DNA of 39,468 bases. It comes from Candidatus Binatia bacterium. Lineage in GTDB: Bacteria > Desulfobacterota > Binatia > UBA1149 > CAITLU01. Numbering within the stretch: position 1 is the stretch's first letter; the number at the start of each line of letters is the position of its first letter. The position numbers and the translations under genes were made by a program. Below, piece by piece: positions 2,321 through 19,886 of this stretch. The notes beneath the pieces were generated by a model that worked only from the letters and a program-made list of their open reading frames with translations, was not told the origin of the DNA and did not search any database. The DNA is taken from assembly GCA_046261745.1 (NCBI GenBank), contig JBHEOD010000004.1, forward strand, positions 2,528 to 41,995. The letters run 5' to 3'.

Positions 2321-2416
2321 CCCGGCCAGCGGTATTCCAGAAGGCGCGCGCGTCGTGCGCCTCGAGCACCGGACGGGCCGCCGCTCGGCCCCTTTCGTCC
2401 AGGAGGATCAAAAGTC

Positions 2417-3607
2417 ATGCGTGAAGCCGTCATCGTCGATGCCATTCGTACTCCCCTCGGCCGCGGAAAGAAGAACGGAGCCCTTTCGGGCTGGCACGCC
2501 GTCGACCTGGCCGCCGAGCCGCTTCGCGCGCTGATCGCGCGCACCGGCCTCGATCCGGCCCTTGTCGAGGACGTGATCATGGGTTGCGTGGGCCAGGTGG
2601 GCGAGCAGGGGCTCAACATCGGCCGCAATGCGGCGCTGGCGGCCGGCTTTCCCGAAACCGTCTGCGGAACCACGGTGGACCGCCAGTGCGGATCGAGCCA
2701 GCAGGCACTGCATTTCGCCGCGCAAGGCGTGATGGCCGGCGCGTACGACTGCGTGATCGCGGCGGGCGTCGAGTCGATGAGTCGCGTACCGATGGGCACC
2801 ACCGCGATGGTCGGCGGCGCGCCGTTCGGACCGAAGATGATCGACCGCTACGTGGAGGCCAACCTCTACGGCCGCGGCGGGCTCGTGAACCAGGGCCTCT
2901 CGGCGGAGGAGATCTGCAAGAAGTGGAACCTCAAGCGCGAGGAACTCGACGCGTTCTCGGCGCAGTCGCACCAGCGCGCCGCCCGTGCGACGGAGATGGG
3001 CTGGTTTGCGCACGAGATCACGCCCGTCGAGCGCACCCACGACGACGGCGGCAAGGAACTCATCACGACCGACGAAGGAATCCGCGCCGAGACGACGGTG
3101 GAGAAGCTCGGAGCGCTGAGGCCTGCATTCGAGGAGACCGGCTGCATCACGGCCGGCAACTCGAGCCAGATCACCGACGGGGCTGCGGCGGTTCTGATCA
3201 TGGAGCGCGGCCGCGCCGAAGCGCTCGGCCTCAAGCCGCGTGCACGCTTTCATGCGTTCGCGCTCGGTTCCTGCGATCCGGTCATCATGCTGACGGCGCC
3301 GATTCCGGCCACCCACAACGTGCTCAAGCGTGCCGGTCTCGAGTTCTCGGACATCGACGCGGTCGAGATCAACGAAGCGTTCGCGCCGGTGGTGCTGGCC
3401 TGGGCGAAGGAGTTCGGGCCCGACATGTCGAAAGTGAATCCGAACGGCGGTGCGATCGCGCTCGGACATCCCCTCGGCTGCAGCGGCACGCGCCTGATGA
3501 CGACGCTTTTGAACCAGCTTGAGCGCTCGGGCGGCCGCTACGGCCTGCAGACGATGTGCGAAGGGGGCGGGATGGCGAACGCGACCGTCATTGAACGCCT
3601 GGGCTGA
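2417..3607 (+). CDS. Acetyl-CoA C-acyltransferase (thiolase), FadA6-like
   Basis: RBS AGGAGG upstream. Catalytic motifs VDRQCGSSQQA, NEAF, GHPLGCSG and GLQTMCEGGG. Confidence 0.93.
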   Translation: MREAVIVDAIRTPLGRGKKNGALSGWHAVDLAAEPLRALIARTGLDPALVEDVIMGCVGQVGEQGLNIGRNAALAAGFPETVCGTTVDRQCGSSQQALHFAAQGVMAGAYDCVIAAGVESMSRVPMGTTAMVGGAPFGPKMIDRYVEANLYGRGGLVNQGLSAEEICKKWNLKREELDAFSAQSHQRAARATEMGWFAHEITPVERTHDDGGKELITTDEGIRAETTVEKLGALRPAFEETGCITAGNSSQITDGAAAVLIMERGRAEALGLKPRARFHAFALGSCDPVIMLTAPIPATHNVLKRAGLEFSDIDAVEINEAFAPVVLAWAKEFGPDMSKVNPNGGAIALGHPLGCSGTRLMTTLLNQLERSGGRYGLQTMCEGGGMANATVIERLG

Positions 3608-3617
3608 CGTTTCGAAC

Positions 3618-3637
3618 GCTTGGGCCTCCGCCCAAGC
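3618..3637 (+). terminator. Hairpin just after the thiolase stop
   Basis: GCTTGGGC-CTCC-GCCCAAGC, an 8 bp perfect stem with no U-tract. Confidence 0.35.
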
Positions 3638-3714
3638 TATGGGAGAAACCTCGGCGGGCGCCCGAAGCGAGTGGGCACCCCGGGCGGAGTTACCGACAAG
3701 GGCCTGGGTGACGA

Positions 3715-4710
3715 ATGCAGACGGAAACACAGTACCGTTCTTTCGGCGCCCAGGCCCTTCACTATTTCCATCGTCCCCATGACGAGGTTGCGACCTCGCC
3801 GGTCGGCGGCGCGGCGGCGTGGCGCGGCCCCGAGGTGGCCGCACGCGACGACTGGATCGTGCGTTTCCCCGCTTCGGAAATCGACGAACTCGAGTCGGCT
3901 GCACGGCGCTGTTCGGATACACCGCTCGAATTTCTCGGACGCAACGACTTCGAATTGCCCACTCTCGCGCCGCGCATCGCCGCGTGGGCGGATACGTTTC
4001 GCAGCGGCCTCGGGCTCTTGCTGCTGCGCGGCCTTCCGGTCGAGCGCTGGGGAGAGGAACTCTCGTCGGTCGTGTTCTGGGGACTCGGACACCACCTGGG
4101 CGTGCCGGGCGGACAGAATCCGCAGGAAGAGCTGCTCGGCCACGTTCGCGACTACGGCGAGGATGCCGCCAGCCCGTTCGTACGCAAGTACCGCACGGCC
4201 GCGAACATCGCGTTCCACTGCGACCTCGCCGATATCGTCGGCCTGCTGTGCCTGCGCCCCGCGAAATCGGGCGGGGCAAGTCGCATCGTGAGTTCGGTTG
4301 CCGTCCACGACGAATTGCTGCGACAGCGGCCCGATCTCGCCCAAAGGCTCTACGAACCGTTCCTGCTCGATACGCGTGACGAATCGCGCGAGAGCCGCAT
4401 GCCCTGGGTACCCGTCCAGCCGTGTTGCTACAGCGAGGGCCGCCTTCGAACGTTCTACCACAGCGACTATTTCCGATCCGTGGAGCGCCACGCCGCGGCG
4501 CCGCGCTTTACGGAGCAAGAACGCGAACTACTCGACCTCTACGAGGAAATTGCCTCGTCTCCCGCGCTCTATCTCGACATGAGCTTCGAGCCCGGCGACG
4601 TGCAACTGATTTCCAACCACACCGTGCTGCACGCCCGCACGCAATACGAGGACTGGCCGGAACGGTCGCGTCGCCGGCATTTGCTCCGGCTTTGGCTCTC
4701 GCTGGAGTAA
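3715..4710 (+). CDS. TauD/TfdA family Fe(II)/2-oxoglutarate dioxygenase
   Basis: HxD facial-triad motif (AFHCD), distal His in NHTVLHARTQYED, and RRRHLLRLW at the C-terminus. Confidence 0.88.
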   Translation: MQTETQYRSFGAQALHYFHRPHDEVATSPVGGAAAWRGPEVAARDDWIVRFPASEIDELESAARRCSDTPLEFLGRNDFELPTLAPRIAAWADTFRSGLGLLLLRGLPVERWGEELSSVVFWGLGHHLGVPGGQNPQEELLGHVRDYGEDAASPFVRKYRTAANIAFHCDLADIVGLLCLRPAKSGGASRIVSSVAVHDELLRQRPDLAQRLYEPFLLDTRDESRESRMPWVPVQPCCYSEGRLRTFYHSDYFRSVERHAAAPRFTEQERELLDLYEEIASSPALYLDMSFEPGDVQLISNHTVLHARTQYEDWPERSRRRHLLRLWLSLE

Positions 4711-4729
4711 CCCGGGTTAAGGCCGGGCG

Positions 4730-5515
4730 TCAGCCGAACCGTCCTTCGATGTAATCCGCCGTGCGCTTGTCGCGCGGCGCAATGAAGAGATCTTCGGTGC
4801 GCCGGTGCTCGACGATTTCGCCAAGCAGCATGTAGACGCATTCGTCGCTGACACGGCGGGCCTGGGCCATGTTGTGGGTGACGATCACGATTGTGAACGT
4901 ACCGGCGAGCGCACGCATGAGCTCCTCGATGGCGGCGGTCGCGTCGGGGTCGAGCGTGGAGCAGGGCTCGTCCATCAGCAGGACCGACGGCTTGAGCGGT
5001 AGCAGTCGCGCGATGCAGAGTTTCTGCTGGGCCTCGAGCTGCAATTGGGTCGCCTTCAGGTCGAGGCGATCCTTCAGCGAGTCCCACAGCCGCACGGCCT
5101 TCAGCGCCGACTCGAGCTCGGCTTCCTCCGCGTCCCGGCTGCGCTGCCGCGACGGCGTGTGCAGGCGATAGCCGTAGAGCACGTTGTCGCGCACCGAGAT
5201 CGGCAGCGGATTGGGGCGCTGGAACACCATGCCCACCTGCTTGCGCAATTCCACCAGGTCGACGCCTTCGTCGTAGATGTTGTGGCCGTGGATGCGCACT
5301 TCGCCGGCCGTCGAGACGTAGTCGTGGCGCTCGTTGATGCGGTTGAAGCAGCGCAGCAGCGTCGACTTGCCGCAGCCCGACGGGCCGATCAATGCGGTGA
5401 TGCGACCATCGGTGATCTCCAGGTCGACGCCGCGCACGGCTTCGAACTTGCCGTAAAACAGCCGCAGGCCACGCGTGATGACGGCCGCCGTCCGGTTCTC
5501 GTCGAGCGTGGTCAT
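4730..5515 (-). CDS. pstB: Phosphate ABC transporter ATP-binding protein (downstream copy; degenerate signature motif)
   Basis: Real start is ATG 5515, overlapping the upstream stop. Motifs GPSGCGKS, VFQRPNP, LMDEPCSTLDP, VTHNMAQA, YIEGRFG; signature reads LQLEAQQK. Confidence 0.92.
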   Translation of the reverse strand: MTTLDENRTAAVITRGLRLFYGKFEAVRGVDLEITDGRITALIGPSGCGKSTLLRCFNRINERHDYVSTAGEVRIHGHNIYDEGVDLVELRKQVGMVFQRPNPLPISVRDNVLYGYRLHTPSRQRSRDAEEAELESALKAVRLWDSLKDRLDLKATQLQLEAQQKLCIARLLPLKPSVLLMDEPCSTLDPDATAAIEELMRALAGTFTIVIVTHNMAQARRVSDECVYMLLGEIVEHRRTEDLFIAPRDKRTADYIEGRFG

Positions 5516-6282
5516 CAGCCGAACAACCCCTGCACATACTGGTACGTGCGGGCATCCTGGGTGTTGCGCGAGTAGATGGTCTCGGTGGCGCCCACTTCGA
5601 TGAGACGACCGTCGAGGAAGAGGGCCGTGCGGTCGCCGAGGCGCCTGGCCTGCAGCACCAGGTTTGTCACCAGCACGACGGTCATCGTCGAGCGCAGCTC
5701 CTTGATGACTTCCTCGATGCGCATTGTGGTGACCGGGTCGACGGCGATCGAGAATTCGTCGAGGCAGAGGATCTCGGGCTCGAGCGACAGTGCACGCGCG
5801 ATCGTGAGGCGCTGCTGCTGGCCGCCGGACAGGCGGGTGCCGAGGTCTCCAAGCCGGTCCTTCACTTCGTCGAACAGCGCTGCCTGCCTCAGGCATCGTT
5901 CGACGAGATCGTCGAGCAGCGAGCGGCTGCGGATCCCGGCCATGCGCGGCGCGAAGGCGACATTGTCGTAGATCGACATCGGCAGGCCGACCGGCAGCGG
6001 AAACACGACGCCGATGCGGCGCCGCAGGGAGGCGACGTCGCGGATCGACATGACGTCTTCCCCGTCGATGCGGATGCATCCCTCCACCTTCATGCCGGGG
6101 ACCATGTCCGACATGCGGTTGATGCATTGCAGCAGCGTGGTCTTGCCGGCACCGGCCGGGCCGATGACGGCCAGGATCTCTCCCTCGAGCACGTCCAGCG
6201 ATACGCCGTCGAGCACCACGTGCTCGCCGTAGCGTACGCGCAGGTCGCGGATCTCGATCTTGGCGCGGGAGGTAGTCACCAT
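5515..6282 (-). CDS. pstB: Phosphate ABC transporter ATP-binding protein (upstream copy; degenerate Q-loop and H-loop)
   Basis: Start ATG 6282 overlaps the pstA stop. Motifs GPAGAGKT, LSGGQQQRL, CLDEFSIAVDP; Q-loop reads VFPLP and H-loop reads VTNL. Confidence 0.9.
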   Translation of the reverse strand: MVTTSRAKIEIRDLRVRYGEHVVLDGVSLDVLEGEILAVIGPAGAGKTTLLQCINRMSDMVPGMKVEGCIRIDGEDVMSIRDVASLRRRIGVVFPLPVGLPMSIYDNVAFAPRMAGIRSRSLLDDLVERCLRQAALFDEVKDRLGDLGTRLSGGQQQRLTIARALSLEPEILCLDEFSIAVDPVTTMRIEEVIKELRSTMTVVLVTNLVLQARRLGDRTALFLDGRLIEVGATETIYSRNTQDARTYQYVQGLFG

Positions 6283-7172
6283 TTTCTCCGCGCGCGCAGA
6301 TAGCTTCGCAACAGGATGGAGGAGAGGTTCACGCTCATGACCAGCACCACCAGCACCAGCGCGGTGGCGTAGGGCATCGCCGGCGGTACGTTGGGAACCT
6401 GGGTGGAAAGGGTGAACAGGTGCATCGACAGGGCCATGCACTGGTCGTGCACCGAATTCGGAAGGAAGGGCAGGTAGAAGGCCGCGCCCGTGAACATGAT
6501 CGGGGCGGTCTCGCCGGCTGCACGCGAGACCTGAAGGATCACGCCGGTGAGGATCCCCTGGATCGAGTTCGGAAGCACGACGTGGCGGATGGTCTGCCAG
6601 CGTGATGCGCCAAGCACCCAGCAGGCTTCCCGGAACGACATCGGAACCGCCGACAGCGCCTCCTTGGTGCTTGCGATGATCACCGGCAAGGTCATCACGG
6701 CGAGTGTCAGCGAAGCGGCCAGGATGCTGGTGCCGAGTTGCAGGAAAAGCACGAACGCGCCGACGCCGAACAGCGCGTGCACGATGCTCGGAACGCCGGC
6801 CAGGTTCACGATGGCGAGATGGATGATGCGCGTCATCCAGTTCTCCGGCGCGTACTCGTTGAGATAGATGGCGGCGAGGATGCCGATGGGCGCGGCGATC
6901 ATCAGGGACACGCCGACGAGCCAGAGGGTCCCGACGATGGTCGGGAAGATGCCGCCCGCGGTCATGCCGGCGGCCGGCGAGTCGAGCAGGAACGAGAGGC
7001 TCAGCGCCGGGGCGCCCTTCACGATGAGCAGCCCGAGGATCGCGGTGAGCGGAAGCACGAGCAGCACCGTCATCATCGCGAGGACCGCGCGCGCGACGCT
7101 TTCCGTGTGCCGGCCGGCCCGGGTTCGCTCCGTTGTGGTGAACGGGGAGGTGGCCTGGAATGGCTCACTCAT
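6276..7172 (-). CDS. pstA: Phosphate ABC transporter permease PstA
   Basis: ATG 7172 overlaps the pstC stop. YLNEYA, NLAGVPSIV, EAA-type loop SFREACWVLGASRWQTI, RAAGETAPI. Confidence 0.93.
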   Translation of the reverse strand: MSEPFQATSPFTTTERTRAGRHTESVARAVLAMMTVLLVLPLTAILGLLIVKGAPALSLSFLLDSPAAGMTAGGIFPTIVGTLWLVGVSLMIAAPIGILAAIYLNEYAPENWMTRIIHLAIVNLAGVPSIVHALFGVGAFVLFLQLGTSILAASLTLAVMTLPVIIASTKEALSAVPMSFREACWVLGASRWQTIRHVVLPNSIQGILTGVILQVSRAAGETAPIMFTGAAFYLPFLPNSVHDQCMALSMHLFTLSTQVPNVPPAMPYATALVLVVLVMSVNLSSILLRSYLRARRKW

Positions 7173-8101
7173 CGCGAGGCCTTGCGCCCGCGAACCATCA
7201 GGTCGGCGGTGAGGTTGACGATGAAGGTAAGCGTGAACAGCAGCACGCCGATGGCGAACAGGGCCTGGTAGTGGTCGCTGCCGCGTGCGGTCTCGCCGAG
7301 CTCGGCGGCGATGGTCGCGGTCAGCGTGCGCACGGAGTCGAGCGGGCTGTGCGGAATCTGCACCGCGTGACCGGTGGCCATCAGCACGGCGATGGTCTCC
7401 CCGATGGCGCGGCCGACACCGAGCAGCACGGCGGCCAGCAGACCGTTTCGAGCGGCCGGCAGCAGCACCTTCGTGATCGTCTGCCAGCGCGAGGCGCCCA
7501 TCGCGAGGGAGGCTTCCCGGTAGGAATCGGGAACCGCCTTGAGCGCGTCTTCCCCGATCGAGACGATGATCGGCACGCTCATCAGCCCGAGGATGAGTCC
7601 GCCGTTGAGCACGTTGAGCCCGATCGGCGCGTCGAACATCGCGATGATCATCGGGTTGACCATGGCCAGTCCGATGAAGCCCCACACGACGGAGGGGATG
7701 GCCGCGAGGAGCTCGATAACGACCTTGAGCAGTTCCTTGCGGCGGCCCGTGGTGAACTCGGACACGAAGATGGCGGCACCGAGGCCGAACGGCACGGCGA
7801 TCGCCATCGCGAGGGCCGTGACGCTGACGGTGCCGGCAATCAGCGCCAGCGTTCCGTAGCGCTTCTGGCCGACCGAGGTAGGCACCCACTCGGTGCTGAA
7901 CAGGAACTGTCCGAAGTCGAGCCGATTCACGATGAATTCGGCTCCCGAACCCACCACGAACACGAAGATCGCGAACACGAAAAAGATCGCGCTGAATCCG
8001 CATGCACGGATGAGCAACTCGACGAGTCGCTCGATGGTCACGGAGGCGAGGCTGCGCCCCCGGCGGACCGGGGGATGCCTTGTCACGGACGGTGATGTCA
8101 T
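7169..8101 (-). CDS. pstC: Phosphate ABC transporter permease PstC
   Basis: ELLAAIPSVVWG, EDALKAVP..REASLAMGASRWQT, GRAIGETIAV. Confidence 0.93.
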   Translation of the reverse strand: MTSPSVTRHPPVRRGRSLASVTIERLVELLIRACGFSAIFFVFAIFVFVVGSGAEFIVNRLDFGQFLFSTEWVPTSVGQKRYGTLALIAGTVSVTALAMAIAVPFGLGAAIFVSEFTTGRRKELLKVVIELLAAIPSVVWGFIGLAMVNPMIIAMFDAPIGLNVLNGGLILGLMSVPIIVSIGEDALKAVPDSYREASLAMGASRWQTITKVLLPAARNGLLAAVLLGVGRAIGETIAVLMATGHAVQIPHSPLDSVRTLTATIAAELGETARGSDHYQALFAIGVLLFTLTFIVNLTADLMVRGRKASR

Positions 8102-8235
8102 GGCCGGTGAATTCTCAGTCCGATGTCGATTGGGCGGATTGGGTGTTTCGATGTCGCGCTCGTCGGTTCATGGTCTGTTGCCCCGGTCGTCGCTGGATCG
8201 TCGCGCTTACTCGTCCCGGCTGGCGCTCTCGTGCT

Positions 8236-9102
8236 TCAAAGCGGGACGAACCCGTTCTCGCCGACGATTTTCTGGCCCGCCGGCGACAGGATCCAGTCGA
8301 GATAGGTTTTCGTCTCGCCCTGGGGCTCGCCGAGCGTGTACATGAAAAGGTTGCGCGAAAGCGGGTACTCGCCGCTCTTGGCGGTCTCGAGGGTCGGGGC
8401 CACGCAGGGAGTGGTAGTGTCCTTGGCCAGGCAGACCTGATGGACCTCGTGGGTGGCGTAGCCCATGCCGCTGTAGCCGATCGCGCACGGTGTCTTGGAG
8501 ACGAGATCGACGACATCCTTGCTGCCCTGCATGTCGCGCGATCCGAGTTTGAAGTCGCTCGTCGCACCGAGCACCGCTTCACGGAAATACTCGTATGTGC
8601 CCGAGTTCGACTGCCGGCTGACGCGGATGATCTTCTGGTCGGCGCAGCCCGGGACCTCCACGCCAACCGAGGTCCAGGTGTCGCAGGTTCCCTTCTCCCC
8701 GTAGATGCATGCGAGGTTTTCCATTGTGAGAGTCTTGGCGGGGTTGGCGGCGTGCACGTAGACCACGATGGCGTCTCGCGCCACCTTGAACTCGACCGCT
8801 TCCTTGCCGGTGTGGCTCTTGACCTGCTCGCGCTCGTCGGCGTGAATGTCGCGGCTTGAATTGGCGATGTCGACGTTGCCGTTGATCAGCGCGGCGATGC
8901 CGGTGCCGCTTCCGCCGCCGCTAACTGCTACGGCGACGGTCGGCTTCACGGTACGATAGGTTTCCGCCCAGGCCTGCGCGACGTTGACCAGGGTGTCGGA
9001 GCCCTTGTTCTGAAGAAGAACGCGGTCTCCGCTGCCGCGCGAGCACGCAGAGAGCATCGCCAACGCAGCCGCTGTCATGATTAGGGTGGTTCTCGAGCTC
9101 AT
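8236..9102 (-). CDS. pstS: Phosphate ABC transporter substrate-binding lipoprotein
   Basis: ATG 9102 with GGAG upstream; lipobox-like MLSAC; KGSDT, GGGSGTG, SRQSNSGT, YPLSRNLFMY. Confidence 0.92.
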   Translation of the reverse strand: MSSRTTLIMTAAALAMLSACSRGSGDRVLLQNKGSDTLVNVAQAWAETYRTVKPTVAVAVSGGGSGTGIAALINGNVDIANSSRDIHADEREQVKSHTGKEAVEFKVARDAIVVYVHAANPAKTLTMENLACIYGEKGTCDTWTSVGVEVPGCADQKIIRVSRQSNSGTYEYFREAVLGATSDFKLGSRDMQGSKDVVDLVSKTPCAIGYSGMGYATHEVHQVCLAKDTTTPCVAPTLETAKSGEYPLSRNLFMYTLGEPQGETKTYLDWILSPAGQKIVGENGFVPL

Positions 9103-9177
9103 TTCCAGTTTTCTCCGAATCGGCACGTCGTCATCGCCAAGGCCGGCGGGTTGGCTTCATCGAGACACGCGCGCCGT

Positions 9178-10284
9178 TCAGTTTGCCGTGTCCAGGCTCG
9201 AGACGGTGCCGTGCAGGCTCTGGATCAGCGTCGTGATGCGTTCGAGAAGGTCGTCGAAGAGGCCCGAAAGCGCTTCGGCCCCGGCATCCGCCAGTGCGTC
9301 GGGCATGTCCCAGTCCACCACCACCGTCCGGAAGCCGAGCGTCTGCTGGGAGACCGCGCGCGCGGCCTCGCGGTCCACCGCGACGATGATGCGGTAATTG
9401 CCGAGCGGACCCATCGTGGCCAGCGGCGAGGCCTCCCGGTCGGAGAGGTTGATGCCGCGCTTGGCCAGGAAGTCGAGGAGCGGGGCGTCGGGATGTCCGG
9501 GGGCGGTCGTCGCGGCGGCGAACGTGAACTGGTCGCCCGCGACCGTACTCGCGATGGCCTCGGCGATGGACGCCAGGGACGAGGTGCCCGACGACAGGAA
9601 CAGGATGGTGGCCGTGCCCTTCGACTGATGCTTCACACTCTCGCCGGTGAGCATGTAGTAGACCTCTTCGCAGATGTTCACGGCCTGGTCGGCCACGCGC
9701 TCGTAGCGGTTGGCCACCGACAACAGCGAGAACAGCCTGGAGAGTTCGTCCGAACTGACCGGGATCTCCGCCACGAGGTTCTGGTAGATGTCGTGGTGAA
9801 GGGCGTTGGCCGTTGCCTCGAGCGCGATCGTCCGCCTGGCGAGATCGAGATCCTCGTCGAGAAAGGAGCGAACAGCCTGCCGCATCATGTCGACCGCCAC
9901 TCCAGCTATCTTCTCGAAACTTTCGAATTTGTTGACTTTTTCGGTCTTGGCCAAAAGGATGGCTTGGCGGTTGATGCTCTCGGCGTAGTCTCCGACCCGC
10001 TCGAGCTCGGAGACGATCTTGGCCACGGAGTGCACGAAGCGGAGGTGGGTGGCCACCGGGATGTGACGGACGATGAACTCGACGCACATCGCGTCGATCA
10101 TGCTCTCGAGGTCGTCCACCCGGGAGTCGCGCAAAATGGCGGCGTACGCGAGCTTGGTGTCGCCGGCGGTGAGCGCGCGCACCGAGTCCTCCAGCCCGCG
10201 AAGGGCAAGATCGGCCATCTCACGAACGCGATCCCGGATGCGGTGGATGTCGTTCTGGAGCTTTTCTTCCAGGTGCGAGGTCAC
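9178..10284 (-). CDS. phoU: PhoU fused to a C-terminal degenerate ArsC/LMW-PTP-like domain
   Basis: The first ~215 aa carry two PhoU repeats (ELERVGDYA; YERVADQAVNICEEV). The C-terminal ~150 aa follow the LMW-PTP/ArsC pattern (ILFLSSGTSSLASIAEA ... RGINLS ... DWDMPDA). Confidence 0.88.
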   Translation of the reverse strand: MTSHLEEKLQNDIHRIRDRVREMADLALRGLEDSVRALTAGDTKLAYAAILRDSRVDDLESMIDAMCVEFIVRHIPVATHLRFVHSVAKIVSELERVGDYAESINRQAILLAKTEKVNKFESFEKIAGVAVDMMRQAVRSFLDEDLDLARRTIALEATANALHHDIYQNLVAEIPVSSDELSRLFSLLSVANRYERVADQAVNICEEVYYMLTGESVKHQSKGTATILFLSSGTSSLASIAEAIASTVAGDQFTFAAATTAPGHPDAPLLDFLAKRGINLSDREASPLATMGPLGNYRIIVAVDREAARAVSQQTLGFRTVVVDWDMPDALADAGAEALSGLFDDLLERITTLIQSLHGTVSSLDTAN

Positions 10285-10375: not shown

Positions 10376-10459
10376 AGCCTCGGCGCAGTTACGCAGCCCC
10401 CTTTGACCCCCGTCGCACACGCGGCCCGAACGGGCGTTGGCAGAGAACGATGCTCCGTG

Positions 10460-10473
10460 TAGAACGCGTTCCA
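10460..10473. promoter_or_regulatory. KstR-type operator TnnAACnnGTTnnA
   Basis: TAGAACGCGTTCCA matches the KstR consensus at every defined position and ends 41 nt before the ATG of the sterol side-chain operon. Confidence 0.65.
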
Positions 10474-10514
10474 CTCTGAACGCGGTCACCGGCCGCCCAA
10501 GGAATCGCGCAAAC

Positions 10515-10997
10515 ATGAGCCAGGACAAGTTGAGGCACTACCAGGGGGTCCTCTCGGCGGTGCATACCCTCGAGTACCCGTACACGCGCTCGGTAGGAAC
10601 GGTGATCGGCACCTTCCTGGCGGGCCTTCGAGACGGCCGCATCCTCGGAACCCGGACACCGTCCGGCGACGTGCTGGTGCCGCCGAGCGAGTTCGATCCG
10701 GCCACCGCCGCCACGCTCACCGAGATGTGCGACGTGTCGGACACCGGTACGGTCACCACCTGGAGCTGGGTGGCCGAACCGCGAGCAAAGCATCCGCTGC
10801 AAACGCCGTTTGCGTGGGCGCTGATCCGCCTCGACGGCGCCGCAACCGCCTTGCTTCATGTCGTGGACGTCGCCGACGAGGCGTCGATGAAGACGGGAAT
10901 GCGCGTGAAGGCCAGGTGGCGGGCCGAGCGCAAGGGCATGATCACCGACATCGAGTGTTTCGAAGCCGCCGATGCCGGCTCGGGAGCAAAGTCATGA
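10515..10997 (+). CDS. DUF35/OB-fold acyl-CoA-binding protein lacking Zn-ribbon cysteines (Rv3521 N-half-like)
   Basis: YTRSVG, FLAGLRDGRILG, GTVTTWSWV, PFAWALIRLDGA, GMRVKARW...ITDI. Confidence 0.82.
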   Translation: MSQDKLRHYQGVLSAVHTLEYPYTRSVGTVIGTFLAGLRDGRILGTRTPSGDVLVPPSEFDPATAATLTEMCDVSDTGTVTTWSWVAEPRAKHPLQTPFAWALIRLDGAATALLHVVDVADEASMKTGMRVKARWRAERKGMITDIECFEAADAGSGAKS

Positions 10998-11515
10998 GCG
11001 ATCCACTGCCCGGGACGGTCCGCGAACTTCCGACGCCGATCAAGATGATCACCGTGCCGACAAGTCTGGAATACACCATCACGCCCGGCAAGGCGCCGGC
11101 GCGATTTCTCAAGGGCATGATGGAGGGACGCATCCTCGGCGAGCGCTGCCCGAAGTGCCGCAAGGTCTACATGCCCCCGCGCGGATCGTGTGCGACCTGC
11201 GCGATTCCCACCGAAGAGCAGGTGGAGTTGTCGAACAAGGGCACCGTCACGACATTCTGCGTGGTGAACCTGCCGTTTTACGGACAGGCAGTCGAGATTC
11301 CGTACGTGTGTGCGGCGGTGGTACTCGACGGCGCGGATCTTCCGTTTTTCTGTCTGCTGGCCGAATGCCCGGTCGACGACGTGCGCATGGGCATGCGCGT
11401 CGAAACGGTGTGGTGCGAACCGGCCGAGCGCAAGCCGTCGCTCGAGAACATCCGCTACATGCGACCGACCGGTGAGCCGGACGCGTCTTACGATTCCTTC
11501 AAGGAGCACCTGTGA
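10994..11515 (+). CDS. DUF35 Zn-ribbon/OB-fold protein (Rv3521 C-half-like)
   Basis: ATGA overlap with the previous gene. CPKC...CATC Zn ribbon, GTVTTFCVVN, GMRVETVW, PTGEPDA. Confidence 0.88.
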   Translation: MSDPLPGTVRELPTPIKMITVPTSLEYTITPGKAPARFLKGMMEGRILGERCPKCRKVYMPPRGSCATCAIPTEEQVELSNKGTVTTFCVVNLPFYGQAVEIPYVCAAVVLDGADLPFFCLLAECPVDDVRMGMRVETVWCEPAERKPSLENIRYMRPTGEPDASYDSFKEHL

Positions 11516-12582
11516 TGCGCGAGATTGCGGTCGTTTCCTTCGCGCAGGCTGTGTCGGTGCGTCGCGATATCATCCAGAACGAAGTGGAGATCCTGATGCC
11601 TGTGGTTGCCGAAGCGGTCGCCTCGAGCGGGCTGACGCGCGACCGTATCGGCTTCACTGTTTCCGGCAGCTGCGACTATCTCGCCGGCGTGCCGTTCTCG
11701 TTCGTGATGGCTCTCGACGGTGTCGGAGCCTGGCCGCCGATCGAGGAATCGCACGTCGAAATGGACGGAGCCTGGGCGCTGGCCGAGGCCTGGACGCGAC
11801 TTCAGCACGGCGACATCGACACGGCGCTCGTGTTCGGTTTCGGCAAGTCGTCGGTCGGCGAGCTTCCGGACGTGCTCACTCTTCAGCTCGATCCGTATCT
11901 CGTTGCGCCGCTGTGGCCGGATTCGATCAGCGTGGCCGCGCTGCAGGCCCGCGCGATGATCGATGCCGGTCTCTGCACCGAGAAGGACATGGCCGAGGTG
12001 GCGGTGCGCAGCCGTCGCGATGCGAAGTCGAATCCGTACGCGCAACTGACCGGCGACTTCTCCGTCGACCAACTGCTGGCCGACCGCTGCATCTCGTCGC
12101 CGCTGCGCCGTCACGATTGTGCGCCGATCTCCGACGGCGCCTCGGCCGTGATCCTGGCCGCTGGCGACGTCGCGCGAGCGCTGTGCGAGAAGACCGGCCG
12201 CACGCCGGCCTGGATCCGCGGCCTCGATCATCGTGTCGACTCGCAGAACCTCGGCGGTCGCGACCTCACCACCTGCCCCTCGGCGCGCATCGCGGCGCTC
12301 AAGGCGGGCGTGACCGACGGCCCCGTCGATATCGCCGAGATCTACGCGCCGTTCACTCACCAGGAGATCCTGCTGCGAAAGGAACTGGGCCTTTCCGCGT
12401 CCACGCGAGTGAATCCTTCCGGAGGCGTGCTCGCGGGCAATCCGATGATGGCGGCTGGACTCATCCGCATCGGCGAAGCTGCGTCGTACATTCACCGCGG
12501 CGAGGCGAAGCGAACCGTTGCCCACGCCACCTCGGGCCCTTGTCTTCAACAGAACCTCGTCTGCGTGCTGGAGGGAGAGTGA
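11515..12582 (+). CDS. ltp4: Thiolase-fold lipid-transfer protein, Ltp4-like (aldolase subunit)
   Basis: SGSCDYLAG, GAWPPIEESHVEMDGAWA, VNPSGG, AHATSGPCLQQNLV. Sits between DUF35 and ltp3, as in the mycobacterial order. Confidence 0.8.
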   Translation: MREIAVVSFAQAVSVRRDIIQNEVEILMPVVAEAVASSGLTRDRIGFTVSGSCDYLAGVPFSFVMALDGVGAWPPIEESHVEMDGAWALAEAWTRLQHGDIDTALVFGFGKSSVGELPDVLTLQLDPYLVAPLWPDSISVAALQARAMIDAGLCTEKDMAEVAVRSRRDAKSNPYAQLTGDFSVDQLLADRCISSPLRRHDCAPISDGASAVILAAGDVARALCEKTGRTPAWIRGLDHRVDSQNLGGRDLTTCPSARIAALKAGVTDGPVDIAEIYAPFTHQEILLRKELGLSASTRVNPSGGVLAGNPMMAAGLIRIGEAASYIHRGEAKRTVAHATSGPCLQQNLVCVLEGE

Positions 12583-13739
12583 TGGCCCGTCATTGTGCAG
12601 TCGTAGGAATCGGCCAGACCCGCCACGCGGCCAAGCGCGGCGACCTTTCGATGGTCGGACTCGTTCGCGAGGCCGCGCTCGCCGCGCTCGAAGACGCGGG
12701 GCTAGACTGGAAGGACGTCGAAGCGCTGGTGATCGGCAAGGCTCCGGACATGTTCGAGGGCGTGATGCAGCCGGAACTGTATCTTGCCGATGCCCTCGGC
12801 GCCGTCGGCAAGCCGATGATCCGCGTGCACACGGCCGGCAGCGTGGGCGGGTCGACCGCACTCGTCGCGGCGCACCTCGTGCAGTCGGGGCAGTTCTCGC
12901 GCGTGTTGACGGTGGCTTTCGAGAAGCAGTCGGAAAGCGAGGCCACCTGGGCGATCACGCCGAAGATCCCGTTCCAGCCGCCTCTCGTGGCCGGAGCCGG
13001 AGGCTACTTCGCGCCGATCATTCGCGCGTACATCGACCGTTCGAAGGCACCGGCCGACATCGGACTTCGCGTGGCCGTCAAGGACAGGCAGAACGCGATG
13101 CGCAATCCGTTCGCGCACCTGCACCTTCCGGACATCGACATGGAAACGGTGGCGAACTCGCCGCTGCTGTGGGACCCCTTGCACTATCTCGAGTGCTGCC
13201 CGTCGTCGGACGGCGCGTGCGCGATGGTGCTGGCCGACGAGAGCGCCGCCAGAAAGGCTCCCGCTCGTCCGGCATGGGTGCTCGGCACGGCGATGCGCAG
13301 CGAGCCGACGATGTTTCCCGGCCGTAACCAGATCAATCCGCGAGCGGGCCGTGAGTGCGCGCAGGCCGTCTACCGACAGGCCGGCATCGACAATCCGCGC
13401 AAGCAGATTGATACCGCCGAGATCTACGTGCCGTTCAGCTGGTACGAACCGATGTGGATGGAGAACCTCGGCTTCGCCGACTTGAACGAAGGCTGGAAAA
13501 TGACGCTCGACGGTGTGACGGCCTTCGACGGGGCGCTTCCGATCAATCCGTCCGGCGGTGTGCTGTCGTCGAATCCGATCGGGGCCTCGGGAATGCTGCG
13601 ATTCGCCGAGGCTGCGATGCAGGTGCGCGGTGCCGCCGGCGAGCATCAGGTGGACGGGGCGAAGATCGCGCTCGGACACGCGTACGGCGGCGGATCCCAA
13701 TTTTTCTCGATGTGGATGGTCGGCGCAGAAAAACGCTGA
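12582..13739 (+). CDS. ltp3: Thiolase-fold lipid-transfer protein, Ltp3-like (steroid side-chain aldolase)
   Basis: Real start ATG 12582 overlaps the previous stop. GKAPDMFEGVMQPE, RVHTAGSVGGST, EIYVPFSWYEPMW, SNPIGASG, GHAYGGGSQF. Confidence 0.85.
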   Translation: MARHCAVVGIGQTRHAAKRGDLSMVGLVREAALAALEDAGLDWKDVEALVIGKAPDMFEGVMQPELYLADALGAVGKPMIRVHTAGSVGGSTALVAAHLVQSGQFSRVLTVAFEKQSESEATWAITPKIPFQPPLVAGAGGYFAPIIRAYIDRSKAPADIGLRVAVKDRQNAMRNPFAHLHLPDIDMETVANSPLLWDPLHYLECCPSSDGACAMVLADESAARKAPARPAWVLGTAMRSEPTMFPGRNQINPRAGRECAQAVYRQAGIDNPRKQIDTAEIYVPFSWYEPMWMENLGFADLNEGWKMTLDGVTAFDGALPINPSGGVLSSNPIGASGMLRFAEAAMQVRGAAGEHQVDGAKIALGHAYGGGSQFFSMWMVGAEKR

Positions 13740-13804
13740 TCCGCCGGCGGGAACGCGCCGACGAAGGTCGCGGCTTCGAGCCGGACGGACAACGGGAGAC
13801 CCCG

Positions 13805-15421
13805 ATGGAACTGAATATCGCAGACCTGTTCGAAATGGTTGTCGACACGGTTCCCGAGCGCGAGGCGCTCATCTGCGGGGACAAGCGCTACACGTACGCA
13901 GAGCTGGACCGCGAGGCCAATCGGCTGGCCCACTTCCTTGCCGGCAAGGGCGTGAAGCCCGGCGAGCACGTCGGCATGTATCTTTACAACGGCGCCGAAT
14001 ACCTCGTGGCCGTCCTGGCCGCGTTCAAGATCCGCGCGGTTCCCGTCAATGTGAACTACCGTTACGTCGAGGACGAGCTGGCCTATCTGCTCTCCGACAG
14101 CGACCTCGTCGCGCTGTTCTATCAGCGCGAGCTCGGTTCGCGCGTGGCGGGCCTCAAGGGCCGCGTGCCGAAGGTGAGGGTGCTCGTCGAAGTGGACGAC
14201 GGCAGCGACGCGCCGCAAGCGTTGCCGGAGGCCGTGTCGTTCGGGGATGCGCTCGCGTCCGGAAAGAGCGAGCGCGATTTCGCAGCGCGCTCGGGCAAGG
14301 ACATCTACATCATCTACACCGGCGGCACGACGGGCATGCCGAAGGGCGTGATGTGGCGCCATGAAGACGTCTTTTATGCAGGCCTGCAGGGCGGCAACCC
14401 GGGCGGACCTCCGATTGCGAGGGGCGAAGACCTCGTCGACATCGTGCGCGGCGGCATGGGCCTGACCGTGTTGCCTTCGGCGCCGTTCATTCACGGTGCG
14501 GCGCAGTGGGCCTCGCTGATCGGCTTCTTCGGCGGCGGCAAGGTCGTCGTGCAGGGCGGAAAGAGCTTCGAGCCGCGGACGGTTGCGAGACTCATTCGCG
14601 ACGAGAGGGTCAATACGCTGACGCTGGTAGGCGATGCGATGGCCAGGCCGCTTGGCGAAGCCATCGAGGCGATGGGGGACGAGGCCGACGTGTCGTCCGT
14701 GTTCGTGATCGGCTCTGCCGGCGCGGTGCTGTCGGAGACGGTAAAGGAACAGCTGCGACGCGTGATGCCGTCGGTGATGATCGTCGACAGTTTCGGCGCC
14801 ACCGAGACCGGGCACCAGGGCTCGATGATGGCCGGTACGGGGCACGGCGCCGGCCAGGTGCCGCTCTTCTTCATGAACGACACCAACTGCGTGTTCGACG
14901 ACGAAATGAAGCCGGTGGTGCCGGGATCGGGCGTGATGGGCCGCCTCGCCCGTCGCGGCCACATCCCGGTCGGCTACTACAACGACCCCGAGAAGACGGC
15001 CAAGACGTTCTTCGAGATCGACGGCGTTCGCTGGGTGATGCCGGGCGATCTTGCCACCGTGGAGAGCGACGGCAGCATTCGCGTCTTCGGCCGCGGCGCG
15101 GTCTGCATCAACAGCGGCGGGGAGAAGATCTTTCCCGAAGAAGTGGAAGCGGCGCTCAAGGCGCATCCCGACGTCCTCGACGCCGTGGTGGTCGGCATTC
15201 CCGACGAGCGCTGGGGGCAGCGGGTGGCGGCGCTCGTGCAGCCGCGACCCGGTGCGAAGCCGAGTGCGGAGGATCTCGACCGCCACTGCCGTACCAAGGT
15301 GGCCGGCTACAAGATTCCCCGCTTCGTGCGTTTCGTCGATGAGGTGATGCGCCAACCGAGCGGCAAGCCCGACTACCGCTGGGCGGCGTCCTACGCCGCG
15401 GAGCAGGCCGCCGCGGTTTAA
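13805..15421 (+). CDS. fadD19: Acyl-CoA synthetase, FadD19-like (steroid-CoA ligase)
   Basis: ATG 13805 with GGAG upstream. MELNIADLFE start, YTGGTTGMPKGVMWRHED AMP-binding loop, CINSGGEKIFPEEVE, PSGKPDYRWA. Confidence 0.8.
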   Translation: MELNIADLFEMVVDTVPEREALICGDKRYTYAELDREANRLAHFLAGKGVKPGEHVGMYLYNGAEYLVAVLAAFKIRAVPVNVNYRYVEDELAYLLSDSDLVALFYQRELGSRVAGLKGRVPKVRVLVEVDDGSDAPQALPEAVSFGDALASGKSERDFAARSGKDIYIIYTGGTTGMPKGVMWRHEDVFYAGLQGGNPGGPPIARGEDLVDIVRGGMGLTVLPSAPFIHGAAQWASLIGFFGGGKVVVQGGKSFEPRTVARLIRDERVNTLTLVGDAMARPLGEAIEAMGDEADVSSVFVIGSAGAVLSETVKEQLRRVMPSVMIVDSFGATETGHQGSMMAGTGHGAGQVPLFFMNDTNCVFDDEMKPVVPGSGVMGRLARRGHIPVGYYNDPEKTAKTFFEIDGVRWVMPGDLATVESDGSIRVFGRGAVCINSGGEKIFPEEVEAALKAHPDVLDAVVVGIPDERWGQRVAALVQPRPGAKPSAEDLDRHCRTKVAGYKIPRFVRFVDEVMRQPSGKPDYRWAASYAAEQAAAV

Positions 15422-15542
15422 CCGGGTTCCACGGCCGCGCGGCGCGGCACGCGCTTTCACGTCGCGCGAGTCCCGAATCGAGTGGCTACGGGGAGATCCG
15501 CCCGTTCATCAATCCATCCAGGGCATCCAGGAGGAACCGCCA

Positions 15543-16355: not shown

Positions 16356-16383
16356 GTCCTTCGCACCGCCACGGCGACCAACC

Positions 16384-16416
16384 GGCGAGCACATGCCTGG
16401 CCGGCATGTGCTCGCC
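16384..16416. terminator. Strong hairpin between convergent genes (likely bidirectional terminator)
   Basis: GGCGAGCACATGCC-TGGCC-GGCATGTGCTCGCC, a 14 bp perfect stem. Confidence 0.65.
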
Positions 16417-16427
16417 ATCGTTTGACG

Positions 16428-18044: not shown

Positions 18045-18052
18045 GTGTTCAC

Positions 18053-18075
18053 CTCCACGGTGCATCACCGTGGAG
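18053..18075 (-). promoter_or_regulatory. RBS-sequestering hairpin in the 5' UTR of the Cys-rich gene
   Basis: CTCCACGGTG-ATG-CACCGTGGAG on the minus strand, a 10 bp perfect stem whose 3' arm contains the GGAG of the SD. Confidence 0.5.
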
Positions 18076-18136
18076 TATGAGACAGATCACCAAGGCTTGG
18101 CAACGCCCCCAATCGCCCGCTCGATGGGGGGATGCT

Positions 18137-18331
18137 TCACTCTTCTGCGATGGAGATCGCCTGCCGCGGACACAGGCGCACGGCTTCTTTCAGCTTGTCC
18201 CGCATGGATTCGGGGGGGTGTTCGATGAGGATGTTGAGCGAGTCCTGGTCATCCACCTGGAACACGTCAGGGAGGATGCGCATGCACACGGCATTGGCTT
18301 CGCACAGATCGTAGTCGACGACGACTTTCAT
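18137..18331 (-). CDS. Ferredoxin, single-cluster [3Fe-4S] type (P450 partner, FdxD-like)
   Basis: 64 aa with CEANAVC ... CPRQAI, directly downstream of the P450. Confidence 0.9.
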   Translation of the reverse strand: MKVVVDYDLCEANAVCMRILPDVFQVDDQDSLNILIEHPPESMRDKLKEAVRLCPRQAISIAEE

Positions 18332-18365
18332 GATGGTCGGACTCTAGCTGTGACGGTTCGCCCAG

Positions 18366-19798: not shown

Positions 19799-19886
19799 GG
19801 GTAACAGTTTCCGCGCACTGCGGCAAGACGAGAATGGCTCCCAGCGCGTCCATGACGCCCAAGGGCGTGTGACCTCAGGTGATTCC

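What the first reader, a model, noticed from the sequence alone, without database searches (positions are those of the whole stretch)
4730..6282. Two PstB subunits with complementary degeneracy: an asymmetric Pst ATPase with one active site
Seen: upstream PstB keeps the LSGGQ signature but has lost the Q-loop Gln (VFPLP, ~5992-6006) and the switch His (VTNL, ~5659-5670), and has an altered D-loop (SIAVDP). Downstream PstB keeps Walker A/B, Q-loop and His but its signature is LQLEAQQK (5021-5044). Known: each ABC ATP site combines the Walker/Q/H motifs of one NBD with the signature of the other. Inference: in a heterodimer all intact motifs meet in one site and all defects in the other, as in CFTR/TAP/SUR-type exporters, and either homodimer should be impaired. 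I know of no description of this for a type I phosphate importer. The dead site could serve as a nucleotide sensor.
Basis: partly seen in the sequence, partly recalled or inferred. Interest (0 to 1): 0.8.

Follow-up and report, generated by a model that had tools for sequence, protein, structure and literature searches.

The report
Asymmetric PstB pair in phosphate importer
Two neighbouring ATPase genes of a phosphate-uptake system have each lost the opposite half of an ATP-splitting site, so that only together can they build one working site and one silent one; this pairing is conserved in many environmental bacteria, and I found no description of it for phosphate importers.

Summary
Window 4730-10284 (minus strand) holds phoU(+ArsC-like domain)-pstS-pstC-pstA-pstB1-pstB2. 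PstB1 keeps Walker A, Walker B and LSGGQ but has Pro for the Q-loop Gln, Asn for the switch His and an altered D-loop. PstB2 keeps Walker A, Q-loop, Walker B and His, but its signature reads LQLEAQQK.

This is not decay. All 119 listed PstB1 homologues keep the substitutions. dN/dS is 0.11-0.17. The altered motifs are among the most conserved segments.

The two defects co-occur wherever I could look. All 14 PstB1-type loci from six or more phyla carry a PstB2-type gene downstream, as do 21 of 21 examined relatives. Four relatives without PstB1 also lack PstB2. In two 96-98% complete relatives the pair belongs to the only Pst system detected.

On a careful tree each paralogue forms one clade. 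Milder sister pairs (Q to A, H to N, with partner LSGEQ or LSLEQ) suggest a graded series.

Best reading: an obligate PstB1-PstB2 heterodimer with one consensus and one non-hydrolytic ATP site. This is inferred from sequence, not shown biochemically. PstB1 keeps the catalytic Glu, unlike classical degenerate sites. Six literature searches found no description. Verdict: new variant of a known kind.

The parts
9178..10284 (-). phoU fused to a C-terminal ArsC/LMW-phosphatase-like domain (368 aa); first gene of the operon
   Evidence: TIGR02135 PhoU 162.5 bits, above cut-off 130.25, on residues 8-216. A profile of the C-terminal domain hits B. subtilis ArsC 1jl3 at E=2.6e-21. Pfam LMWPc matches 8 of 12 members. 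The long form lies in the same operon, upstream of pstC, in 12 of 13 related loci with enough DNA.
8236..9126 (-). pstS, phosphate-binding protein
   Evidence: TIGR02136 229 bits, above cut-off 206.6; PBP_like_2.
7169..8101 (-). pstC permease
   Evidence: TIGR02138 284.1 bits, above cut-off 196.45.
6276..7172 (-). pstA permease; its start overlaps the pstC stop, and its stop overlaps the pstB1 start
   Evidence: TIGR00974 265.4 bits, above cut-off 193.45; coordinates.
5515..6282 (-). pstB1 (255 aa): NBD with intact Walker A, Walker B, catalytic Glu, A-loop Tyr and LSGGQ, but Q-loop Gln to Pro, H-loop His to Asn and D-loop SALD to IAVD
   Evidence: (TIGR00972 288.4 bits, below cut-off 343.2). 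AF2 model pLDDT 89.9; best fold match E. coli PstB 9k3x_C, TM 0.91/0.95, rmsd 1.6 A.
5992..6006 (-). PstB1 altered Q-loop VFPLP (P95 in place of Gln)
   Evidence: The segment VFPLPVGLPMS is invariant at 10 of 11 positions in 15 sequences.
5659..5670 (-). PstB1 altered H-loop VTNL (N207 in place of His)
   Evidence: T206, N207 and L208 invariant.
5734..5751 (-). PstB1 altered D-loop SIAVDP
   Evidence: The segment LCLDEFSIAVDPVTT is invariant at 13 of 15 positions.
5818..5832 (-). PstB1 intact signature LSGGQ, which would complete the consensus site with PstB2
   Evidence: invariant.
4730..5515 (-). pstB2 (261 aa): NBD with intact Walker A, Q-loop, Walker B, D-loop and H-loop, but a degenerate signature
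   Evidence: (TIGR00972 310.7 bits, below cut-off 343.2). AF2 model pLDDT 89.2.
5021..5044 (-). PstB2 degenerate signature LQLEAQQK (canonical LSGGQQQR)
   Evidence: L158, L160, E161, Q163, Q164 and K165 invariant in 14 sequences.

Best explanation
The operon encodes a Pst-type phosphate ABC importer, PstS-PstC-PstA, whose motor is an obligate heterodimer of two diverged paralogues, PstB1 and PstB2.

In the head-to-tail NBD dimer the two ATP sites differ.
- Consensus site: PstB2's Walker A, Q-loop, Walker B and His, closed by PstB1's intact LSGGQ. All catalytic elements are present.
- Non-canonical site: PstB1's Walker A, Walker B and A-loop are retained, so nucleotide binding is expected. The Q-loop Gln and the switch His are missing, and the site is closed by PstB2's LxLExQQK in place of LSGGQQQR.

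Hydrolysis at the single consensus site would drive transport. The other site would hold ATP and act structurally or in regulation. Either homodimer would have two defective sites. The overlapping stop and start codons favour equimolar synthesis.

What is shown: the sequences, their conservation, their co-occurrence, purifying selection, single clades, intact predicted folds, and that the pair sits in the only Pst system detected in some genomes.

What is inferred: heterodimer formation, lack of hydrolysis at the second site, and its role.
For: 1. Motifs and their mapping onto solved E. coli PstB. Passages of PMC12976172 state that in PstB, ATP is bound by Walker A and B of one monomer and LSGGQ of the other.

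2. Conservation.
- All 120 sequences (the query plus 119 homologues, 72-94% identical) have Pro in the Q-loop, Asn in the H-loop and FSIA[VI]DP.
- Among 15 PstB1 from six or more phyla, the altered Q-loop is invariant at 10 of 11 positions and the D-loop segment at 13 of 15, against 88 of 255 overall.
- Among 14 PstB2, the altered signature is invariant at 6 of 8 positions, against 91 of 261 overall.
- Binding residues are invariant in PstB1: A-loop Tyr, Walker A Lys, Walker B Asp-Glu.

3. Purifying selection. dN/dS against four same-genus loci is 0.106-0.153 for PstB1 and 0.138-0.169 for PstB2, at dS 0.60-0.69.

4. Co-occurrence.
- All 14 PstB1-type loci among the 80 loci of the genome-contig scan have a PstB2-type gene directly downstream. 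The signature was readable in 13, all L[QSPT]LE[QAE]QQK. The other 66 loci showed one canonical PstB each.
- 26 of 30 same-order relatives carry a PstB1 type, against 0 of 10 genomes of other families in the class.
- 21 of those 26 were examined and all 21 have the pair.
- The 4 relatives lacking PstB1 have only canonical PstB.

5. Necessity. G014, G015 and G019 (96-98% complete) have no TIGR00972 hit at E<=1e-50 other than the tandem pair. G014 and G015 have a single PstC and a single PstA, both adjacent to the pair.

6. Phylogeny (careful IQ-TREE, 71 rows; supports are ultrafast bootstrap / SH-aLRT).
- PstB1 clade 100/100; PstB2 clade 100/100.
- All Q-loop-less PstBs together 100/100; all signature-degenerate PstBs together 98/94.
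- With 40 motif columns dropped, a quick tree still gives SH-aLRT of 98 and 92.
- Pairwise identities of PstB1 and PstB2 correlate, r=0.77 over 66 pairs.

7. Both proteins are predicted to fold as complete NBDs (pLDDT 89.9 and 89.2). The best structural match of PstB1 is E. coli PstB.

8. Milder sister pairs show the same complementarity in 4 of 4 loci with room to see it: L090, L140, L151 and L160 have Q to A and H to N upstream, and LPMDQ, LSLEQ or LSGEQ downstream.
Against: - There are no biochemical or structural data on the complex. The complex prediction could not be run.
- PstB1 keeps the Walker B catalytic Glu (E176, invariant). The abstract of PMC7544095 (search listing) calls loss of that Glu the hallmark of a degenerate site. 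Slow hydrolysis at the second site is therefore not excluded.
- A related Q-loop-less PstB that keeps its His (L126: Q to D, VPHNI) sits alone between pstA and phoU. Loss of the Q-loop Gln alone is thus compatible with a single-gene, presumably homodimeric, system.
- In E. faecalis, excess PstB2 replaces PstB1 (abstract of PMC12096839). Tandem pstB genes need not form obligate heterodimers.
- The tree groups were defined by the trait and the root is unknown.
- The relatives are kin, not independent samples.
Confidence: 0.75

Rival explanations
1. PstB2 alone, as a homodimer, powers transport and tolerates its unusual signature. PstB1 is a non-transporting regulatory pseudo-ATPase, for example a docking partner for the long PhoU protein.
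For: - PstB2 has every catalytic residue of its own.
- In E. faecalis one paralogue is sufficient when over-expressed (PMC12096839 abstract).
- The operon carries an unusual PhoU fusion, conserved in 12 of 13 loci.
- PhoU is reported to interact with PstB in E. coli. I saw this only as the title of a reference in the reference list of PMC12976172.
Against: - A PstB2 homodimer would have LxLExQQK at both sites. Ser-Gly-Gly is replaced by Gln/Ser-Leu-Glu, and LSGGQ is described as essential for ATP binding in PstB (PMC12976172 passages).
- PstB1's intact LSGGQ, Walker A and Walker B are invariant. That is hard to explain if it never pairs with a catalytic partner.
- Co-presence and co-absence are strict.
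Confidence: 0.1
2. The pair is a heterodimer but both sites still turn over ATP. The conserved replacement residues (PstB2 signature Glu, PstB1 Asn and retained catalytic Glu) would form an alternative catalytic arrangement rather than a silent site.
For: - The catalytic Glu E176 is retained and invariant in PstB1.
- The replacement residues are themselves strongly conserved rather than drifting.
- Single-gene Q-loop-less relatives exist (L126).
Against: Three elements that contact the gamma-phosphate or the attacking water are lost together in one site: the Q-loop Gln, the H-loop His and the signature Ser-Gly-Gly. Their roles are summarised in passages of PMC7756269. The pattern matches the consensus/degenerate split of heterodimeric exporters.
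Confidence: 0.12
3. The substitutions are decay of a redundant second pst operon, or sequencing or assembly error.
For: - The genome has a third, canonical pstB elsewhere (384.5 bits).
- Both window PstBs score below the NCBIfam cut-off.
Against: - The frames are open and dN/dS is 0.11-0.17.
- The same substitutions occur in 119 of 119 listed homologues and across phyla.
- The pair belongs to the only Pst system detected in G014 and G015.
- GC3 is 0.83-0.89, similar to the six neighbouring genes checked (0.77-0.86).
Confidence: 0.01

Closest known systems
Heterodimeric ABC exporters and channels with one degenerate nucleotide-binding site (TM287/288, TmrAB, BmrCD, TAP1/2, CFTR, SUR)
   Same: Two different NBDs. 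All substitutions fall into one composite site while the other stays consensus. The H-loop His and the partner's signature are replaced. A non-hydrolytic, ATP-holding site is expected (PMC7756269 passages).
   Different: - This is a binding-protein-dependent type I importer with separate NBD polypeptides.
- The Walker B catalytic Glu is retained, whereas its loss is called the hallmark of a degenerate site (PMC7544095 abstract in listing).
- The Q-loop Gln is replaced by Pro.
- There is no common ancestry of the asymmetry: both paralogues nest among PstB proteins.
Tandem pstB1-pstB2 of Firmicutes (Enterococcus faecalis; PstBA/PstBB of Bacillus subtilis)
   Same: Two adjacent pstB paralogues at the end of a pst operon. 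A PstBA-PstBB-PstC-PstA-PstS complex is modelled for B. subtilis (table in PMC11466899).
   Different: [quoted passage not shown] Here each paralogue lacks what the other keeps.
RbsA and NupO, importer ATPases with two fused NBDs and one degenerate site
   Same: An importer with one predicted non-functional ATP site (PMC11466899 passages).
   Different: - Those are single polypeptides of the ribose/nucleoside class, listed under type II importers in that paper.
- Their second Walker A lacks the Lys, so binding itself is lost.
- Here there are two separate subunits and the Walker A Lys is retained.
E. coli PstSCAB (PstB homodimer; PDB 9k3x, 9k3y, 9k3s)
   Same: Same subunit set and the same NBD fold. 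The PstB1 model matches 9k3x_C with TM 0.91/0.95. Sequence matches have E=5e-63 and 3e-71.
   Different: E. coli uses two copies of one canonical PstB. Here the two positions are filled by different, complementary paralogues, and PhoU carries an extra ArsC-like domain and is encoded first.

Membership tests
PstB (NCBIfam TIGR00972, equivalog) | Whole-protein score at or above the curated cut-off of 343.2 bits | tested here: not met
   PstB1 288.4 and PstB2 310.7 bits. The genome's third copy scores 384.5. TIGR00972 is still the best-scoring family for both.
PstB (NCBIfam TIGR00972, equivalog) | Encoded with pstS, pstC and pstA, and folds as a PstB-like NBD | tested here: met
   The operon partners score above their cut-offs. 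The best PDB sequence and fold match is E. coli PstB.
PstB (NCBIfam TIGR00972, equivalog) | Full canonical motif set in one polypeptide (Walker A, Q-loop Gln, LSGGQ, Walker B-Glu, H-loop His) | tested here: not met
   PstB1 lacks the Gln and the His. PstB2 lacks Ser-Gly-Gly of the signature.
ABC NBD heterodimer with one consensus and one degenerate ATP site | Two non-identical NBDs whose substitutions all map to the same composite site | tested here: met
   Mapping of motifs onto the head-to-tail geometry stated for PstB (PMC12976172 passages).
ABC NBD heterodimer with one consensus and one degenerate ATP site | Loss of the Walker B catalytic Glu in the degenerate site (called the hallmark in the PMC7544095 abstract) | tested here: not met
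   PstB1 E176 is present and invariant in 15 sequences.
ABC NBD heterodimer with one consensus and one degenerate ATP site | The two subunits physically form a heterodimer | not tested
   The complex-prediction job never entered the queue (for example). Support is indirect only: strict co-occurrence, overlapping stop and start codons, and correlated divergence, r=0.77.
ABC NBD heterodimer with one consensus and one degenerate ATP site | The degenerate site binds but does not hydrolyse ATP | not testable with these tools
   Binding residues are retained (Y18, K47, D175). Hydrolysis needs an assay.
PhoU (TIGR02135) | Score above the cut-off of 130.25 bits over the two PhoU repeats | tested here: met
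   162.5 bits on residues 8-216; Pfam PhoU matched in 2 stretches.
ArsC / LMW phosphatase family (Pfam LMWPc), for the PhoU C-terminal domain | Sequence membership | tested here: inconclusive
   The window's copy scores 19.8 bits, below the gathering score of 23.2. 8 of 12 members match at E<=0.01, best 5e-17. The family profile hits ArsC 1jl3 at E=2.6e-21.
ArsC / LMW phosphatase family (Pfam LMWPc), for the PhoU C-terminal domain | Catalytic Cys-X5-Arg loop | tested here: not met
   The Cys column holds Cys in 1 of 12 sequences (L015) and Ser in the window. The Arg column holds Arg in 5 of 12 and Leu in the window (aligned to 1jl3).

The most novel reading that the evidence does not exclude
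The PstB1-PstB2 pair and the PhoU-ArsC-like protein form one regulatory machine. The silent ATP site keeps the NBDs pre-engaged, so that transport costs one ATP per cycle. The catalytically dead oxyanion-binding ArsC-like domain of PhoU reads cytoplasmic phosphate (or arsenate) and gates the asymmetric ATPase. That would be an energy-saving, feedback-controlled phosphate importer that arose once and spread among phyla of environmental bacteria.
Probability: 0.2. Interest if true: 0.8.

Novelty: new variant of a known kind. Interest (0 to 1): 0.62.

Why it matters
ABC importers with separate ATPase subunits are generally treated as having two equivalent catalytic sites. Asymmetric one-site motors are a theme of exporters and channels such as CFTR and TAP.

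Here nature has built the same split in a type I, binding-protein-dependent importer, as two small soluble subunits that can be expressed and mutated separately. That gives a clean system for three questions:
- Does import need one or two ATP per cycle?
- What does a non-hydrolytic site contribute?
- How does such asymmetry evolve? Milder intermediate pairs exist.

The system is also the only Pst transporter detected in some near-complete genomes of the same order. It therefore bears on how those bacteria acquire phosphate, and on automatic annotation, since both subunits fall below the PstB equivalog threshold.

Tried and rejected
- Complex prediction. Searches answered that the queue was full. 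Searches were not sent on. It never ran, so there is no result either way.
- Full transporter model. PstC+PstA+PstB1+PstB2 (1124 residues) exceeds the tool's 1000-residue limit and was not tried.
- Expression: no RNA holder listed.
- The metagenome scan with the milder-clade alignment used generic peptide patterns. Only 9 of its 80 loci carried a PstB with altered motifs; 70 showed a single canonical PstB, and one (L149) showed two overlapping canonical ORFs that I did not interpret.
- The cluster look-up gave no names for the milder clade.
- Foreign origin by composition: GC3 of the pst genes is 0.83-0.89, against 0.77-0.86 for the six neighbouring genes checked, so there is no clear sign.
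- Decay or sequencing error: rejected.
- A literature listing for PhoU plus arsenate reductase plus fusion showed no paper on such a fusion among the 12 listed.
- Searches failed on an out-of-frame pstA coordinate. I corrected it and repeated them.
Full report
**1. What is in the window**

Six co-directional genes lie on the minus strand between 4730 and 10284:
- phoU, carrying an extra C-terminal domain (9178-10284)
- pstS (8236-9126)
- pstC (7169-8101)
- pstA (6276-7172)
- pstB1 (5515-6282)
- pstB2 (4730-5515)

PstS, PstC, PstA and PhoU all score above their NCBIfam cut-offs. Both PstB proteins have TIGR00972 as best family but fall below its cut-off of 343.2 bits, at 288.4 and 310.7 bits. 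Successive genes overlap: the pstB1 stop and pstB2 start share a base (TGATG), and the pstB1 ATG lies inside the end of pstA. GC3 of the six genes is 0.83-0.89, against 0.77-0.86 for the six neighbouring genes checked.

**2.

PstB1:
- Intact: Walker A (GPAGAGKT), Walker B with the catalytic Glu (ILCLDE), and LSGGQ.
- Altered: VFPLP where the Q-loop Gln should be, VTNL where the switch His should be, and SIAVDP for the D-loop.

PstB2:
- Intact: GPSGCGKS, VFQRP, LLMDE, CSTLDP and VTHN.
- Altered: its signature is LQLEAQQK.

I did not rely on remembered consensus. Both proteins align without gaps over these regions to the solved E. coli PstB (9k3x_C). PstB1 P95, N207 and E176 align with Q98, H210 and E179. 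PstB2 Q159-L160-E161 align with S155-G156-G157.

AlphaFold2 models from the family alignments are confident (pLDDT 89.9 and 89.2). The best structural match of PstB1 is E. coli PstB in PstSCAB (TM 0.91/0.95, rmsd 1.6 A). Both are therefore complete NBDs, not remnants.

**3. Not decay**

- The 119 listed homologues of PstB1 (72-94% identity) all carry Pro in the Q-loop, Asn in the H-loop and FSIA[VI]DP, together with an intact LSGGQQQR.
- Against four same-genus loci, dN/dS is 0.106-0.153 for PstB1 and 0.138-0.169 for PstB2, at unsaturated dS of 0.60-0.69.
- I aligned 15 PstB1 and 14 PstB2 sequences from loci whose record titles name Myxococcota, Verrucomicrobiota, Acidobacteriota, Gemmatimonadota, Rhodothermales and Planctomycetes, plus one record labelled Enterobacterales. 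The altered segments are among the best conserved.
  - PstB1 Q-loop segment: 10 of 11 positions invariant. D-loop segment: 13 of 15. Whole protein: 88 of 255.
  - PstB2 signature: 6 of 8 positions invariant. Whole protein: 91 of 261.
- The residues needed to bind nucleotide stay invariant in PstB1: A-loop Tyr18, Walker A Lys47 and Walker B Asp175-Glu176.

**4. The two defects co-occur**

Genome-contig scan (80 loci kept):
- 14 loci (L009-L022, 56-81% identical) have a PstB1-type gene, and all 14 have a PstB2-type gene directly downstream.
- The signature could be read in 13 and is L[QSPT]LE[QAE]QQK in all 13. In L018 the contig ends inside the gene.
- In the remaining 66 loci my ORF/phmmer screen (E<=1e-40) found one PstB, canonical at all three positions.

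Whole genomes:
- A PstB1 type (65% identity or more) was found in 26 of 30 relatives of the same order: 4 of 5 in the same genus, 6 of 7 in the same family, and 16 of 18 in other families of the order.
- It was found in 0 of 10 genomes of other families of the same class.
- I fetched 20 of the 26 loci and saw a 21st. All 21 have the adjacent PstB2 type. The signature was readable in 20 and degenerate in all 20. L188 is cut by the contig end.
- Five carriers (G020, G025, G027, G029, G030) were not examined.
- The four relatives without PstB1 (G002, G008, G016, G017; 94-98% complete) have only canonical PstB and no PstB2 type.

These relatives are kin, so the counts show stable co-inheritance rather than independent events. 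The 14 cross-phylum loci are the more independent sample.

**5. The pair can be the only PstB**

The window's genome (77.7% complete) has a third, canonical pstB in a pstA-pstB-phoU context on another contig (384.5 bits). However, G014, G015 and G019 (96-98% complete) show no TIGR00972 hit at E<=1e-50 besides the tandem pair. G014 and G015 show a single PstC and a single PstA, both next to the pair. G019 has one further partial hit at a contig end. Within the limits of draft genomes, the asymmetric system is the only Pst transporter found there. That argues it is a working phosphate importer.

**6. Evolution**

The careful IQ-TREE run had 71 rows. Supports are ultrafast bootstrap / SH-aLRT:
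- PstB1 is a clade at 100/100.
- PstB2 is a clade at 100/100.

The representative search and a metagenome scan revealed milder relatives.
- An 'NN' group has Q to A/S and H to N with a canonical D-loop. In the 4 of 4 loci with room to see it (L090, L140, L151, L160), its downstream partner has LPMDQ, LSLEQ or LSGEQ.
- A 'QH' group has Q to A/D but retains the His (L105, L126, L142, L162).
- All Q-loop-less proteins together form one side of a branch (100/100). All signature-degenerate partners form another (98/94).
- After I removed 40 motif columns, a quick tree still gave SH-aLRT of 98 and 92.
- Within the two main clades the branching is similar, and pairwise identities correlate (r=0.77 over 66 pairs).

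This fits one ancient duplication followed by stepwise, complementary loss and spread of the operon among phyla. The root is not known and the groups were defined by the trait, so the order of events is an inference.

L126 matters as a caution. There a Q-loop-less PstB that keeps its His stands alone between pstA and phoU, so loss of the Gln alone does not demand a partner.

**7. Mechanism**

In PstSCAB, ATP is held by Walker A and B of one PstB and LSGGQ of the other, and ATP binding closes the dimer (PMC12976172 passages). Applied here, only a PstB1-PstB2 heterodimer yields a complete site: PstB2's catalytic half with PstB1's LSGGQ. The reciprocal site keeps the binding residues but lacks the Gln, the His and Ser-Gly-Gly. 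A PstB1 homodimer would lack the Gln and His at both sites. A PstB2 homodimer would lack the signature at both.

My best explanation (confidence 0.75) is an obligate heterodimeric motor with one catalytic site and one ATP-holding site.

The parts that remain inferred are physical pairing, absence of turnover at the second site, and its purpose. Candidate purposes are keeping the NBDs engaged, halving ATP cost, or sensing nucleotide.

The retained catalytic Glu distinguishes this site from the classical degenerate site of exporters (PMC7544095 abstract in listing). It leaves room for slow hydrolysis.

**8. Comparison with what is known**

- Tandem pstB genes are known in Firmicutes. In E. faecalis both paralogues are reported to have motifs identical to E. 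coli PstB, and excess PstB2 substitutes for PstB1 (PMC12096839 passages and abstract). That paper states that no earlier study had compared tandem pstB paralogues.
- Degenerate sites are reviewed for type I exporters (PMC7756269 passages).
- Degenerate sites are noted in the fused-NBD importers RbsA and NupO (PMC11466899 passages).
- Six full-text searches returned no paper describing complementary motif loss in PstB. The library holds open-access papers and bioRxiv only, so a description in a subscription journal cannot be excluded.

I therefore file this as a new variant of a known kind.

**9. An accompanying feature**

The PhoU of this operon is about 365 aa long. Its C-terminal 145 residues are an ArsC/LMW-phosphatase-like domain: the profile hits B. 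subtilis ArsC 1jl3 at E=2.6e-21, and Pfam LMWPc matches 8 of 12 members. The long form lies in the same operon, upstream of pstC, in 12 of 13 related loci with enough DNA. It is the first gene in eight of them and follows pstS in four. L022 has a short PhoU downstream instead, and the milder pairs have a short PhoU downstream where one is visible. The catalytic Cys is kept in 1 of 12 sequences and the loop Arg in 5 of 12. The window's copy has neither. It is probably a non-catalytic oxyanion-binding or interaction domain. Whether it talks to the asymmetric ATPase is open.

**10. What could not be done**

- The complex prediction never entered the queue.
- The full transporter exceeds the size limit.
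- No RNA run was listed for the stretch.

Noticed in passing
window 9178-9840 (minus strand; C-terminal part of the phoU gene 9178-10284): PhoU is fused to an ArsC/LMW-phosphatase-like domain (profile hit to ArsC 1jl3, E=2.6e-21). The catalytic Cys is replaced in 11 of 12 family members. The fusion accompanies the PstB1/PstB2 operon in 12 of 13 related loci. No paper on such a fusion appeared in one search listing.
   Followed up: partly
L001 (own genome, another contig), 1288-2241 and flanks: The same genome also has a canonical pstB (384.5 bits, all motifs intact) between a long pstA and a short phoU. The organism therefore carries both a symmetric and an asymmetric Pst system, while some relatives show only the asymmetric one.
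   Followed up: partly
L090, L140, L151, L160 (metagenome loci): These are milder asymmetric pairs. The upstream PstB has Q to A and H to N with a normal D-loop. The downstream partner has LPMDQ, LSLEQ or just LSGEQ. A short PhoU lies downstream in the two loci with enough DNA to see it (L090, L140). They look like intermediate stages of the same complementarity.
   Followed up: partly
L126 239-1060; also L105, L142: These PstB relatives have the Q-loop Gln replaced (Asp or Ala) but the His retained. L126 stands as the only pstB between pstA and phoU. This implies that a Pst ATPase can do without the Q-loop Gln at both sites.
   Followed up: no
L162 (metagenome locus), 2393-7898: Three PstB genes lie in 6 kb: a Q-loop-less one after pstS-C-A, a canonical one, and a close paralogue of the canonical one with signature LSIGEQQR beside phoU on the other strand. 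This may be an independent second route to signature loss.
   Followed up: no
L011-L014, L016, L021, L022 (PstB1 and PstB2 D-loops): In this subclade PstB2's D-loop ends in Val or Ala instead of Pro (SALDV, SALDA) while PstB1's reads SIAIDP instead of SIAVDP. These are correlated changes in the two loops that face each other in an NBD dimer. However, they are confined to one clade, and L010 has SIAIDP with SALDP.
   Followed up: no
window 10407-20519 and 25614-39468: The neighbourhood is rich in lipid or steroid-type catabolism and storage-lipid genes: ChsH2-type OB-fold protein, thiolase-like proteins, acyl-CoA ligase, enoyl-CoA hydratase, P450, TetR, MaoC dehydratase, KshA C-terminal domain, GPAT-like acyltransferase and WS/DGAT. 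No link to the pst operon is evident.
   Followed up: no
window 16431-18086 (minus strand): A 552-aa open frame with gene-like GC3 (0.79) had no Pfam match at E<=1e-5.
   Followed up: no
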